The notes under the pieces are model-generated. The model worked only from the letters and a program-made list of their open reading frames with translations, ran no database searches and was not told where the DNA came from. Of a DNA stretch of 64,000 nucleotides, positions 996 through 51,426 are shown piece after piece. This DNA comes from Octopus vulgaris (lineage: Eukaryota), in the NCBI GenBank assembly GCA_951406725.2, contig OX597836.1, positions 20,708,001 through 20,772,000 of the forward strand, written 5' to 3'. Every line of letters starts with the position of its first letter. Positions within the stretch are counted from its first letter, which is position 1. Made by a program: the position numbers and the translations under genes.

Positions 996-1070
<75 letters not shown>

Positions 1071-1154
1071 TACACACACGTATAAATGTATATATAAAAT
1101 GTGTAAAGCATAAAACAAAATTTCATGGTAAAATGAGAAGAGAAGCCAACTTAC

Positions 1155-1397
1155 ATCCTGATCTGCTGGGGGTATATTGGCCGACAACGGTAATGGTTTT
1201 GCTACACCGATGACAACAGTTCCTCTTGGAGCCCCTTTCAGTGCCTGGACAGCATCATCCAAAGTAGCATGTTCCAAATTGACATCATTAACAAAAACTA
1301 ACCTGTCACCTGGTAACAACCGCCCGTCCAGTTGTGCCACACCACCAGGGACAAGACTTTTGATCACAATTACTGTCTCAGCAGGGTTTACGGGGTC
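1155..1397 (-). CDS. Patj: Patj/MPDZ-like multi-PDZ protein, internal exon D (C-terminal part of the second PDZ in the window)
   Basis: 243 nt, phase 0-0, acceptor ccaaatccag| and donor |gtaagt. Translates DPVNPAETVIVIKSLVPGGVAQLDGRLLPGDRLVFVNDVNLEHATLDDAVQALKGAPRGTVVIGVAKPLPLS..., closely matching the MPDZ PDZ5 / Patj PDZ pattern. In frame with exon C. Confidence 0.95.
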
Positions 1398-1556
1398 CTG
1401 GATTTGGCAAGAAAAGAAAATAGATATATATATATGAAAATGGCACCGAATACACCTTGATTGTGTAAAGAGCTGTTTGCAAGCATTTGGTTTAAATCAC
1501 TAGAATTGTGTGTTTGAGCATGTGTTCATACACACACATCTATATTATAAAAAATA

Positions 1557-2691: not shown

Positions 2692-3508
2692 TTAAACAGG
2701 ATTTGGTTAAGCTGCAAGGCTGAAATTGTACTCCATGTCAGCTCCATGTATATTTTGGCACAAGACCAGCAATTTCGGGGGAAAAGGATAAGTTGATTAC
2801 ATAAACCCTAGTGTTCAACTGGTACTTATTTTATTAACAACTGAAAAGATGAAAGGCAAAGTCGAACCTGGTGGCATTTCAACTCAGAACATAAAAGTTG
2901 GAAGAAATTCCACTAAGCATTTTTCCAACACAGTAATGATTCAGCCTGGCCATTTGACATTTCTTAATTTATTTTCAACTATGTAGGGTTGATTTAAGCA
3001 TACAAAGAATTTAAAGAGGCTCTTCTGTTGATTAAGCTACATTGAGACACATTTTGGCTGTTTATTTTTTTGCTTTCTTTCATAATCATAGGGCTGTTTT
3101 AAATGTTTAATCCTTTTACATTTAATCTGACCCCTACCTGGCCAAAATATTCTACCTCTTTTATGTTAAAACTGACCAGATCCAACCTCTTACACCTACT
3201 CTACAATGTCATTCTAATAACATACAAACACACCATTAAAATCTTGAAGTTATAGGATAACATGTAATTAATTCAAAACAATGTGAATAAATAAGCAATA
3301 CATTTGACAAAGAAATTTGAATGCGAAGGTCTTCGTGTGTATTTGAATGGCTGGTATGTGCCTTCCATGCTGTTTTAATTTCAATACATGGTCTCACATA
3401 AAATCGCTTGATTAGCAAGTAAACCTCCCAAACATTGAAAAAAAGAGAAGAAAAAAAAAAGAATCACGTAAATAAGCAAAATATTACAATGTCCAGATCA
3501 ATAGTTAC

Positions 3509-3892
3509 CTGATAATCAAGAATGCTAAATCCAAGGCCTTTGTCAAGCTTCTTCAATTCTATAACAACAGGTTCACTACTCCACATAGCAAGCCCCGTTA
3601 AGGGCTCAAGGGATCGTGACCGATTTAGGAGGTTCTTCTCAGCAGTCCATTCTTGTGATGTTAATGTAACTTCTGATTTAGCTTTTACGAGCCGGTCTGT
3701 ACATGGTGAGTTGGGAATCACTCCAGAATTGAGTAGTGAAGGGCTTTGAAAGACATCTTGTTCTTTGCTGGCAAAGTTTTCTAATTTACTTTTCTTTGGA
3801 CGAGCGCAGACCAACCGAACATGTTGCGGCAGCTCTTTTAATATACTCACAACCTCTTTATGATTCAATCCCAGGAGGCGTTTACCATTAAC
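3509..3892 (-). CDS. Patj: Patj/MPDZ-like multi-PDZ protein, internal exon C (end of first PDZ, linker, start of next PDZ)
   Basis: 384 nt, phase 0-0, tccttcag| ... |gtaact. Translates VNGKRLLGLNHKEVVSILKELPQHVRLVCAR...LVKAKSE...RSRSLEPLTGLAMWSSEPVVIELKKLDKGLGFSILDYQ, including the GLGF carboxylate loop. Confidence 0.95.
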
Positions 3893-4221
3893 CTGAAGGA
3901 GTAGGAAAAGGTAGAATTATAATCATTGATGAATTAATAGAAATAATAATACAACTGAAACATGCTCAATAACTATAGATACACACACACACACACAAGT
4001 ATAATATATATCATTGTGTGATGTAAATGTTTTTAATTTTTGTTTTTTAAAAGCAAAGCAATGTAAATTATAACAAAAAATACAAGTTGATGGTTTTGTA
4101 TTTTTAAACTGTATTTCAACATCCCAGGGTTAGGACTCCTCCTTTGAGAAATCTTTGAAGATTTGGAGTTGTGTACTGGTTTTTCTGTTCTGCAGAGTGT
4201 GGGTGAGTAAATTAAAAACGT

Positions 4222-38309: not shown

Positions 38310-39494
38310 TATATATTTTCTTTGATTTTTAATTATTTGAAATTTTCCTGTAAAGAAGGAGTTGGTTTCTAATAAAAATACAAAACCCCATTATTGGAAC
38401 ATTGATAATAAAAACAATGTCACATTTTGAACTTGAGAAAAAGTCTTGCATATCTTTACTGTTCCACTTACAGATTGTATTTGCAATGTACAGCTATAAG
38501 ACTAACACATATACAAAAAACACTAGAGAATGTTTATGTCCTCGGGTAATTTGAATAATTAAAAGAAAAATAAACTAAAAGAATCAATTTGAAGTGACCA
38601 AAAGATAAAGAAAGATAATAAATATTGTACAAGATGAATTCTTGACCTATTGAAATTATTTTTGCTTTGAGAGAAGGTAAACAAATACCCAAGCAGCTAT
38701 AAAGTAAAGTCTATAGCGATAAACAGATAAAGAATAAAGTATTCTACTATACTTAACTATCCTGATGGAACAAAATAGAAGAAGTGAATGCGAGATTTCA
38801 TTATTAATCATCCTTGGTGCAAATAAATAAAGGTTAGTGGAGCTGTAATTAACTTCCATTCATATTAAACTGTCTCGTTAACTTGTTGACACACAGAAAC
38901 TTAAGTAATTAATAGAAAGTTGTAACTAATAGTTGTATGTTACAGTGAGTACCAACTTTGTGTGTGCATGTAACTAGTGACTGTATGTGCTTGTGTGAGC
39001 ATCAATGCACGTGTGTATTTGAATGCTGAAGACTTGCATATGAGCTGATGGTACAAACAACCAAATGGAACGATGATGAATGAAAACAAGCAACAATGTG
39101 GGGAAATTTAATTCTCTTGTTTTCATTCACTGCACTTGGCTCTTTGATTACATAGGAGCTTCACTCTTTCATCAAAGACAGTAATGGAGTAGCGAGTGAG
39201 TGAGTGAGTTCGGTGATGTGAAAAGTCACATTGATAACACTAGAACTATACAGAAACAGGCATAAACAATAGTCACAGCTGAATAATATGTCTGTCATTG
39301 AAGAATAGAAGGAAGAGGAGGGATGACCACAGCAGAAGACAGAAGCCAAAAGAAGGGAGGAGAAAAAAAAAGTGAGAAAGGAGGGGAAGAGAAGACAGAA
39401 AGGTGCGATGATCTGGAGAAGACAGAAAAAAAGAACACAGAGTAGAAAGGAAGAAGAATTTTGAAGTTGTAGGAAGCCGATAGAATATGATAAA

Positions 39495-40025
39495 GTTCAA
39501 AGGATTATTTACCTAATTTCAGTGGAATACATCCACTGGTTCGTGTGTTATATAGCTAGCTAGAGGCGATGGCCTCTTGGAGCTAATCAACGGCAGCTTC
39601 CGTCCTATATTTATGGACTGCCATATTAGCTTGGCGATAACTGTTAATATCCAGTATCGCTGCCGTAGTCTCCTTTAGAGAGACTTAGAAATAATAATAT
39701 TTCTATTTTTGAAAACCAGTGGATGTATTCAACTGAAATTCGGTAAATAATCCTTTGAACAGATGGTCAGCAGTGACACCTGCTGGGTCTGGCTACTCGG
39801 CATTGATAAAGGGCAAATACCCTGAAACATGTCTGCAGAGGCCTGACCAGCAAGGGGAAGCAGCTCACCTCCCCTGTTCGAAGGTTATAATGGTCACAGG
39901 TTTGCGTGTCATATAGCTAGCTAGAAGCAATGGCCTCTTGGAGCTAATCAACAGCAGTTTTCATCCTATATTTATGGACTGCCATGTTAGCTTGGTGATA
40001 TCTATTAATGATAATAATAATAATA
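39495..40025 (+). mobile_element. Penelope-like remnant (tandem terminal repeat, inverted 5' piece and hammerhead)
   Basis: Direct repeat 39542-39648 / 39905-40009, inverted repeat 39495-39541 / 39714-39760, and a hammerhead at 39781-39852. A related unit is near 51315-51410. Confidence 0.7.
39781..39852 (+). ncRNA. Type-I hammerhead-like motif, U3-A8 variant with extended bulged stem I
   Basis: CTCGGCA-TTGATAA-AGGG-caaata-CCCT-GAA-ACATGT-C-TGCAGAG. Stem I extends TGCTGG.TC.GGC / GCC.GACCAGCA past a TA bulge, and the cleavage triplet is GUC. Confidence 0.7.
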
Positions 40026-40939
40026 ATGATTTCAAATATTGGTACAGGGCCAGTAGTTTCTGAGGGAGGGGCAAGTCGATAACAGTGAACCCCAGTACTT
40101 GACTGGTACTAATTTTATCAATCCTGAAAGGATGAAAGGCAAATTTGACTTTTGTAGAATTTGAGCTCAGAATGTAGATAGACAAAATTCTTAACAGCTT
40201 TTTGTCTAGCATGTTAATAGTCCTGCCAGCTTACCATCTTAATAATGTCCTGAAATTTTGGGGAAGATGGCTAGTTGATTACATTAACCTCAGTGTTTCA
40301 CTAATAATCTTCTCTACTATAGGTAAAAGGCTTGATTTTTCAGGGAAGGGGACTAGTTGATTACAGAGACCTTGAAAGGATGAAAGGAAAAATTGGCTTT
40401 GGCAAAATTTGAACTCAGAACGTAAAAACAGATGAAACACTGATAAGCATTTCGTCTGGCATGCTCGCAATTCTGGAAGCTCACAGTGTTAATAATAACA
40501 ATAATAGTGATAATTCATAGGTGTTGTTTCCTGAGTTAAAACTTAATTAATCGATCCATTTATCTACAAATTTACTCTCTCTCTCTTACACACACATATG
40601 GACACGTACATAGATTTTACAAATACGAAACAATAAAAAATACAAAGAAAGCTTCACACAAGTAATTAGGTTTAGAAAAATATATTTACATGTCTACTCT
40701 CTCTCTCATATAAAATGTATTATTTAGGAAGCAAATCATTTACGTGAAAAATAGAAAAATTTTGCTGGAATTGGAAAAACAAATGTCAGTTTTAGATCAG
40801 ACTGTGTGGAACCATGCAAACCATTTCAAAATCATGGCATTAGTTTAGAGAAATCTTTTAATTTTCTTCGGCTACCTACTTTATAACCAATCTACCTATT
40901 TACCTACTTGCACATAAACCTTTCTTTTTATCTACCTGT

Positions 40940-40977
<38 letters not shown>

Positions 40978-41725
40978 GTGATTTCAAACAATATACCTAT
41001 TTTTACCTGTATATCTATCTTGCACGTAATCCTAACAATATGTCAGTGTAAATATGTCCGTCTGTTTATCTATCTAACCATCTATCTACCTACATACCTG
41101 ATTTATCTGTAATTATTACAATCACAAAACACAGGGGAAAATACAAACAAAAACTGAACACAAACATATATATATATATATAAAGCAACAACAAAAACTT
41201 GCAGATACATTTTAATCTCCAGAACATTTGCTTGGCAGCAAAAATAATTGTATGTGTCTCTAATTTCATTTAACACGCATGTCTTTGCATGACAGTGAAA
41301 TACGTGCTGTTAAGTTAAACAACAATGTATTTTGCAAATTGCTTTGGTGGAGAAAAAAAAAAAAAAAAAAAAGAGAGAAATTACAATGTTTCAAACTACA
41401 TATCTCAATTAATCTGAAAGCTTTGTCTCAGTATTGATTTCAAGGTGTGTTATGTTGTATCTGTTGTGATGTATCAGTTGTTTTCAATTCACATTAACAC
41501 AAACAACAGGTGGAACGACGTAGCTTTTCTATCATTTTCTGCTGTCAATATCCATGAAATGTCGATCCTTCATGTTGGTATTTAACCAACACGTTTTAAA
41601 TTTAGACAACTAAAACTTAAAAGACTCCCAATAGATTTTATTCTCAGATATAATTTCGTAATTTAAAGCACACACTACAATCATGTATAGACACAACACA
41701 CACATCTTTTATCACTTTTTTTAAT

Positions 41726-51218: not shown

Positions 51219-51426
51219 AAAGCGGGACACTCAGTAACACTTCTTTAAAGTAATGGCTATTTGTGCAAAGTGGGAGTGTTGAACTCTCTATTTGAAAATA
51301 TAAGGACACAGATATTGTCGTATAGCCAGCTAGAAATGATGTTTCTTGGGGCTAAAACAACAGTAACATCATCCCTTCCAGGACAGCCACATTATGTTGG
51401 CAGATAGCTTCTACTATATATATATA

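What the first reader, a model, noticed from the sequence alone, without database searches (positions are those of the whole stretch)
39781..39852. U3-A8 hammerhead with extended, bulged stem I
The motif has core TTGATAA, stem II AGGG/CCCT with a 6-nt loop, palindromic ACATGT stem III and a GUC site. Stem I is about 17 bp with a TA bulge positioned where type-I hammerheads make loop II-stem I tertiary contacts. This is the most complete fold in the window. Caveat: U3 and A8 are both transitions from C3 and G8 and could be copy-specific decay that happens to pair.
Basis: partly seen in the sequence, partly recalled or inferred. Interest (0 to 1): 0.7.

Follow-up and report, generated by a model that had tools for sequence, protein, structure and literature searches.

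The report
Decayed copy of U3-A8 hammerhead retrozyme
This is one mutated, predicted-to-misfold copy of a protein-free repeat, present over a thousand times in this animal genome, that carries a predicted self-cutting RNA with an already known base swap and is likely copied by Penelope-type jumping genes; it is a new member of a known kind of element.

Summary
The motif is real (39781-39852, +; predicted cut after C39833) and U3-A8 is not decay: 63 of 66 copies picked without regard to the core have it, none has C3; genome-wide 1,164 U3 matches against 22 C3-G8 matches of an unrelated old family. Stems I and II show compensatory changes, stem III stays palindromic in 61 of 66, and the three Schistosoma-type tertiary-contact bases are fixed in six subfamilies. 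The ribozyme sits in a ~361-bp ORF-less unit, inserted as 5'-truncated head-to-tail pieces with two fixed 3' ends, inverted arms and (TA)n targets: a non-LTR retrozyme with Penelope footprints. Natural U3-A8 cores (2011, 2014) and the retrozyme-Penelope link (2020, 2026 preprint) are published. The scan already noted what looks like this family elsewhere in this genome and similar ones in other genomes. New member of a known kind; interest 0.3.

The parts
39534..40009 (+). Retrozyme insertion, about 1.3 head-to-tail units of a 361-bp ORF-less monomer; 39534-39648 repeats at 39895-40009 (88%); ends at the family's 'short' fixed 3' end (monomer position ~117)
39495..39541 (-). Inverted 5' arm (47 bp, 96% identical to 39714-39760); its outer end is not at either of the family's fixed ends
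39781..39802 (+). Stem I, 5' strand, including the UAC side of internal loop 1 (39794-39796; C39796 matches the extrahelical C of the Schistosoma loop)
39799..39799 (+). Private T>G substitution (0 of 66 sampled copies have G); breaks a proximal stem I pair and lets 39799-39803 pair with 39829-39833 in the predicted fold
39803..39809 (+). Catalytic core 5' half with U3-A8 (family consensus)
39810..39823 (+). Stem II (A10.1-U11.1 closing pair; G-C or G.U in older subfamilies) with loop 2 CAAAUA, identical to the Schistosoma loop 2
39824..39833 (+). G12 A13 A14, palindromic stem III hexamer (39827-39832) and C17; predicted cleavage after 39833
39834..39852 (+). Stem I, 3' strand
39840..39840 (+). 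Private T>G substitution (65 of 66 copies have T, 1 has A) at the loop 1 U that pairs with the last A of loop 2 in the Schistosoma structure; creates the apparent 'TA bulge'
39487..39493 (+). Possible 7-bp target-site duplication, matching 40008-40014 at the start of an (AAT)n run; weak, AT-rich
   Evidence: read from the sequence

Best explanation
This is a mutated, predicted-to-misfold copy of a ~361-bp protein-free repeat family (a non-LTR retrozyme) whose type I hammerhead has a family-wide U3-A8 core and likely cuts itself in intact copies, and which is likely copied into DNA by a Penelope-like element's enzymes. Shown: family-wide U3-A8, covarying stems, palindromic stem III, fixed tertiary-contact bases, head-to-tail units without ORF, random 5' truncation, two fixed 3' ends 56 bp apart, inverted arms, (TA)n targets, and an intact (TA)n-targeting RT+GIY-YIG element in the same genome. 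Inferred: multimeric transcripts are cut at each hammerhead (probably as double hammerheads through the palindrome), monomers are ligated into circles by a host ligase, and the Penelope RT primes at a nicked AT-rich target from one of two fixed points and runs round the circle, often a second time from the other point to give the inverted arm. Inserted copies such as this one then decay neutrally.
For: U3-A8 in 63 of 66 full-core copies among 93 anchored 3' of the core, U3.G8 in 2, C3 in 0; 135 of 143 copies over six subfamilies of 2.7-11% divergence. 1,164 vs 22 genome matches; the 22 share no detectable similarity with the monomer. 10 of 25 pairs have two-sided changes, 92.8% of cells pair vs 26-45% in slid controls. 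Stem III hexamer takes four palindromic forms, 61 of 66 palindromic. 0 of 12 core and 0 of 3 tertiary columns differ between subfamily majorities vs 39 of 152 columns outside. Loop 2 and the U, C, A contact bases match Schistosoma. 79 of 93 copies read across the cut site and 30 of 93 are longer than one unit, with no pile-up of 5' ends at the cut; no shared coding 5' flank. Circular monomers fold at z -2.5 (window) and -5.9 to -6.8 (three natural tandem units). 72 of 85 loci end at one of two fixed points, 40 of 85 have an inverted arm, and 20 of 24 with both ends fixed have one short and one long end. (TA)n next to the 3' end in 58 of 93 vs 3.8% background. Intact 1,177-1,181-aa RT+GIY-YIG frames whose copies also end in (TA)n.
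Against: No cleavage assay, no direct sign of circular RNA: RNA reads from a related-label organism are few (300-337 of about 12 million records), mostly 85-95% alike, of both orientations, with no pile-up of ends; wrap-around reads are also expected from tandem DNA copies. Rfam hammerhead models do not score the motif, not even an intact copy. The one Penelope-like family examined shares no sequence with the monomer, so the carrier is not identified. The core-versus-outside contrast is inflated (clusters were built on outside columns; part of the sample was chosen by its core); two-sided pair counts alone do not beat the shuffle (89 of 500), and related copies are not independent. One large young subfamily has a G.A mismatch at the sixth pair of stem I. 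RNAalifold on the alignment recovers only stem I, not stem II. In the 2026 preprint only 1 of 9 predicted retrozymes cleaved in vitro.
Confidence: 0.8

Rival explanations
1. The unit is simply the terminal repeat (pLTR) of an autonomous Penelope-like element whose full-length copies were not sampled; the hammerhead processes that element's RNA.
For: Inversions, a one-sided tail and microsatellite targets are Penelope features; U3-A8 was first seen in animals in Penelope pLTR hammerheads; Xenopus retrozymes are related to pLTRs.
Against: All 30 of 93 copies longer than one unit wrap into the previous unit, up to 894 bp, rather than run into coding sequence; shared 5' flanks were few and not coding; the hammerhead is the full tertiary-contact type, whereas metazoan pLTR motifs are mostly minimal; the Penelope family examined has a different, minimal motif.
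Confidence: 0.08
2. The family is real and mobile, but its hammerhead is a weak or vestigial cutter; copies come from multimeric read-through transcripts, not circles.
For: U3-A8 plus A10.1-U11.1 are two departures from consensus in the young subfamilies; stem III cannot form well in a monomer; no 5' ends or read ends pile up at the cut site; most tested Xenopus retrozymes did not cleave.
Against: Core, tertiary bases and palindromy are kept across six successive subfamilies while the rest changes; U3-A8 ribozymes are reported active in vitro; dispersed copies are mostly under two units, so long multimer templates are rare among those sampled.
Confidence: 0.1
3. U3 and A8 are copy-specific decay of a canonical C3-G8 hammerhead.
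For: Both are transitions; this copy does carry other private changes.
Against: U3-A8 in 63 of 66 unbiased copies and in the majority of every subfamily, C3 in 1 of 143 and never with G8.
Confidence: 0.01

Closest known systems
Metazoan non-LTR retrozymes (Cervera and de la Pena 2020, PMC7229834; mussel units 350-390 bp, axolotl 330/350 bp)
   Same: Unit of 170-400 nt (361), GC below 50% (43%), no ORF, one type I hammerhead per unit, weak palindromic helix III, highly self-paired predicted circle, co-existence with autonomous PLEs.
   Different: U3-A8 core; mostly dispersed sub-dimer pieces rather than long arrays in the sample; clear Penelope-type ends (inverted arm, one-sided 56-bp tail, (TA)n target). 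The words octopus and cephalopod do not occur in that paper's main text. RNA circles not shown here.
Schistosoma mansoni Sm-alpha type I hammerhead (as described in Dufour et al., PMC2632901)
   Same: Loop 2 CAAAUA, internal loop 1 with 5' U and extrahelical C ending a UAC strand, 6-bp proximal stem I, 4-bp stem II.
   Different: U3-A8 instead of C3-G8; A10.1-U11.1 in the young subfamilies; in the window copy the loop 1 U is mutated to G.
Natural U3-A8 hammerheads (Perreault et al. 2011, PMC3088659; S. mansoni Cercyon PLE min-HHRs, about 1,300 hits, Cervera and de la Pena 2014, PMC4209133)
   Same: The same core covariation.
   Different: The PLE examples are minimal motifs in pLTRs; here it is in a full tertiary-contact hammerhead of an ORF-less unit.
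Retrozymes as non-autonomous PLE derivatives (Li, Clavereau, Pollet 2026, bioRxiv 10.64898/2026.07.22.740005)
   Same: Same proposed carrier.
   Different: Their evidence is co-occurrence and pLTR homology in vertebrates (no mollusc in the main text); here it is insertion anatomy, and no pLTR homology was found with the one PLE family compared.

Membership tests
Type I hammerhead ribozyme | Core N3 U4 G5 A6 N7 N8 A9 / G12 A13 A14 with a Watson-Crick 3-8 pair, A15.1-U16.1 and H17 | tested here: met
   all present; 3-8 is U-A, a published natural variant
Type I hammerhead ribozyme | Three helices, ends in stem I, supported by covariation | tested here: met
   (family); stem III only as 2 bp in a monomer or 6 bp in a dimer. 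For the window copy alone proximal stem I is predicted not to form
Type I hammerhead ribozyme | Loop 1-loop 2 contact bases (U, extrahelical pyrimidine, 3' A of loop 2) | tested here: met
   fixed in all six subfamily majorities, compared; not met in the window copy (G39840)
Type I hammerhead ribozyme | Match to Rfam hammerhead models | tested here: not met
   no hammerhead hit at E up to 10; 6 matches among 73 scored candidates, none of this family
Type I hammerhead ribozyme | Self-cleavage 3' of H17 | not testable with these tools
   no assay; read and copy ends show no pile-up at the site
Non-LTR retrozyme | Non-coding unit of 170-400 nt with one type I hammerhead, head-to-tail, no LTR | tested here: met
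Non-LTR retrozyme | Highly self-paired predicted circle, GC below 50% | tested here: met
   (z -2.5 to -6.8 against 40 shuffles each, GC 0.42-0.43)
Non-LTR retrozyme | [quoted passage not shown] | tested here: inconclusive
   family-like RNA reads exist, low level, both orientations, wrap-around joints not separable from tandem DNA copies
Autonomous Penelope-like element | RT and GIY-YIG open reading frame between pLTRs | tested here: not met
   no such frame attached to 60 core-selected loci or in the shared 5' flanks of 93 anchored copies; the one GIY-YIG frame seen belongs to a different, opposite-strand element
Penelope-mobilised sequence | 5' truncation, partial tandems, inverted 5' copy, tail at one end only, microsatellite target | tested here: met
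   against the description in PMC8557442
Penelope-mobilised sequence | Sequence homology to the pLTR of a resident PLE | tested here: inconclusive
   none with the one family compared (33 loci); other PLE families not compared

The most novel reading that the evidence does not exclude
The family is a 361-nt circular RNA parasite that shares no sequence with its carrier yet is primed twice by a Penelope RT, once from each of two fixed points 56 nt apart (20 of 24 double-ended insertions have one short and one long end). It would be a minimal natural substrate that explains the Penelope 'tail' and inverted arm by twin priming on a circle, and its U3-A8 core, kept through six subfamilies in an otherwise textbook hammerhead, may be a tuned, slower cutter that lets the circle persist.
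Probability: 0.4. Interest if true: 0.6.

Novelty: new member of a known kind. Interest (0 to 1): 0.3.

Why it matters
The finding as posed (a U3-A8 hammerhead) is a known variant and this copy is probably dead. The family is useful for two open points: which enzymes move animal retrozymes, and how Penelope elements make their inverted arms and one-sided tails. A short ORF-less unit with two fixed priming points and an intact candidate carrier in the same genome makes both testable in cells or in vitro. It also offers a natural series of hammerhead variants (U3-A8 with G-C, G.U or A-U at 10.1-11.1) that each spread in a genome.

Tried and rejected
Rfam scans of the window, of 39000-41000 and of an intact copy: no hammerhead hit; RF00163 over the genome scored only 73 of 263,217 candidates, so it says little. 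Search for a C3-G8 ancestor: the L065-type pattern found only L065; the general C3-G8 pattern gave 22 old motifs with short stem I and no similarity to the monomer; relatives of the most divergent copy form an older subfamily that is also U3-A8. Test for linear, cleaved templates: 5' ends do not pile up at the cut site. Search for an autonomous parent: no coding flank; the resident RT+GIY-YIG family is not homologous to the unit. Sequencing-run search: no RNA holder listed, all shares under 0.2; the dip in RNA depth over the hammerhead is also seen in contigs of a run of unrecorded kind and is explained by divergence, so it was not taken as cleavage. RNAalifold found only stem I. A paper on exchanges of the 3-8 pair was not held, so no rate for U3-A8 is cited. 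Literature searches for a description of this family in cephalopods found none: hammerhead, Penelope, octopus; retrozyme with octopus, cephalopod or squid: none of the 20 listed of 4,965 held 'retrozyme'; a weak search; repeat libraries and supplements were not seen.

Full report
1. The observation. On its own the fold is modest (z -1.99) and Rfam finds no hammerhead in the window at gathering score, in 39000-41000 at E up to 10, or in an intact copy. The case rests on the family.

2. U3-A8 is the family state. A DNA search gave 1,658 candidates, 40 scored, 42 matches. To avoid choosing by the core I anchored on a 20-mer 3' of it (886 exact genome matches), took the first 100 listed places (30 loci from the search, 58 stretches fetched; a few listed places were not fetched) and obtained 93 distinct copies. 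Of these 66 cover the whole core: U3-A8 in 63, U3.G8 in 2, A3-A8 in 1, C3 in none. A pattern with U3 matches 1,164 times, the same pattern with C3-G8 22 times, reversed controls 0. The 22 are an old, short-stemmed family with no BLAST similarity to this unit. Relatives of the most divergent copy form an older subfamily that also has U3-A8, with G10.1-C11.1. Over 143 copies in six clusters (2.7-11% from their majorities) U3-A8 stands in 135.

3. Selection on the fold. On 55 aligned sequences (the window plus 54 of 55 copies with an intact distal stem; L108, which has a deletion, was left out), 92.8% of cells pair, against 26-45% for slid controls; 10 of 25 pairs change on both sides, in distal stem I, proximal stem I, stem II and the palindrome. 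The count of such pairs does not beat the shuffle (89 of 500) and copies are related, so this is support, not proof. The stem III hexamer occurs in four palindromic forms, 61 of 66 palindromic, as expected for a double hammerhead. Between subfamily majorities 0 of 12 core and 0 of 3 tertiary columns change, against 39 of 152 outside; five of six variable stem pairs always pair, one passes through G.A. This contrast is inflated, because clusters were built on outside columns and part of the sample was chosen by its core. Single copies decay almost neutrally (2.7% in the 5' core, 3.7% outside). Loop 2 is the Schistosoma CAAAUA and the loop 1 U and extrahelical C are in place (PMC2632901, passages).

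4. The window copy is damaged. It has G at 39799 and at 39840, seen in 0 of 66 sampled copies. It is a poor choice for an assay.

5. The element. The motif lies in a 361-bp unit: 39534-39648 recurs at 39895-40009 and 39495-39541 is an inverted copy of 39714-39760. Across loci the unit runs head to tail up to 894 bp; 30 of 93 copies exceed one unit and all wrap; 79 of 93 read across the cut site and 5' ends are scattered. No RT or endonuclease frame is attached and shared 5' flanks are few and not coding. Of 85 loci 41 end near monomer position 117, 31 near 173, 13 elsewhere; 40 have an inverted arm; of 24 with both ends at fixed points 20 have one short and one long end (about p 0.001 against an even split, my arithmetic). 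(TA)n follows the 3' end in 58 of 93 copies against 3.8% of window positions. These are the Penelope features described in PMC8557442 (passages). Circular monomers fold well (z -2.5 for the window, -5.9 to -6.8 for three natural tandem units, 40 shuffles each).

6. A candidate carrier. One locus abuts a different element with a GIY-YIG frame. Its family has 16,385 candidates, 150 scored at 96-100% identity; three fetched copies have frames of 1,177-1,181 residues, one scanned with RVT_1 over the cut-off and GIY-YIG below it, a cysteine linker of the Neptune type (inferred, no tree), a minimal hammerhead-like motif in repeats on both sides (two of three), and all 30 loci end in (TA)n. It shares no sequence with the retrozyme unit. 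It is a plausible carrier, not a proven one; other PLE families were not compared.

7. RNA. No RNA holder was listed. Three raw RNA runs of one study, organism C, gave 319, 337 and 300 reads among 11.5-12.9 million records, mostly under 95% alike, in both orientations, without pile-ups of ends; 10-20 reads per run wrap by 360 bases (similar, where loose ends show a U3-A8 core with another palindrome). This shows family-like RNA in a related sample; it shows neither circles nor cleavage nor expression of this locus.

8. Mechanism. Most likely: transcripts through tandem units are cut at each hammerhead, probably in pairs through the palindrome (inferred from anatomy and PMC7229834), ligated by a host ligase into a 361-nt circle (inferred from that paper), and reverse-transcribed by a Penelope RT primed at a nicked AT-rich target from one of two fixed points (inferred). 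Shown are the DNA anatomy and conservation only. Confidence 0.8; rivals are a weak or vestigial cutter on multimeric templates (0.1) and an unsampled autonomous parent (0.08).

9. What is known. Natural U3-A8 cores, reported active in vitro: PMC3088659 (passages); about 1,300 in S. mansoni PLE hammerheads: PMC4209133 (parts 1-2 of 4 read). Animal non-LTR retrozymes and PLEs as candidate carriers: PMC7229834 (passages and part 3 of 6). Retrozymes as PLE derivatives: bioRxiv 10.64898/2026.07.22.740005 (parts 1-3 of 5; supplements not seen). PMC6155905 and PMC7151607: passages only. Searches showed no paper on this family in cephalopods; repeat databases and supplements could hold it. The scan's own notes describe what looks like the same family twice in this genome and similar ones in three other windows; these are not independent support.

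10. Verdict. Observation confirmed, interpretation partly supported, new member of a known kind, interest 0.3; the most novel reading (twin priming on a circular parasite RNA, with a tuned core) has probability 0.4 and would merit 0.6.

Noticed in passing
L237:1500-1547 (G000:C5:6546758-6546804, -): A near-textbook C3-G8 type I hammerhead scoring 45.5 bits on RF00163, far above the other five hits and unrelated to this family; copy number and context not checked, could be a domesticated or conserved ribozyme.
   Followed up: no
L238, L239, L242: Another hammerhead family with a very long (about 80-nt) stem II insert and a palindromic stem III, passing the RF00163 cut-off.
   Followed up: no
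L204, L205, L206; window 62669 (-) and 22069 (-): A young, high-copy RT+GIY-YIG Penelope-like family with intact frames; its terminal hammerhead-like motif has U at core position 6 in the 30 loci shown. Two decayed relatives lie in the window.
   Followed up: partly
L152-L173: An old, heavily decayed C3-G8 hammerhead family with short stem I and the same ACATGT-type palindrome, unrelated in flanking sequence to the retrozyme.
   Followed up: partly
window 40023-40250 and at least ten other places: An abundant dispersed SINE-like repeat directly 3' of the retrozyme.
   Followed up: no
window 1068-1496 and 3464-3916 (-): Exon-like frames of a multi-PDZ protein (PF00595 over the cut-off in the first); whether the retrozyme lies in an intron of this gene, antisense to it, was not established.
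   Followed up: partly
window 51299-51364 (+): A weak (74%, E 0.001) match to the 3' part of the retrozyme unit, perhaps an older relative.
   Followed up: no
L097 and L145: Copies on different contigs share 400 bp of 5' flank at 94%, suggesting a chimera with another repeat that spread as a unit, or a segmental duplication.
   Followed up: no
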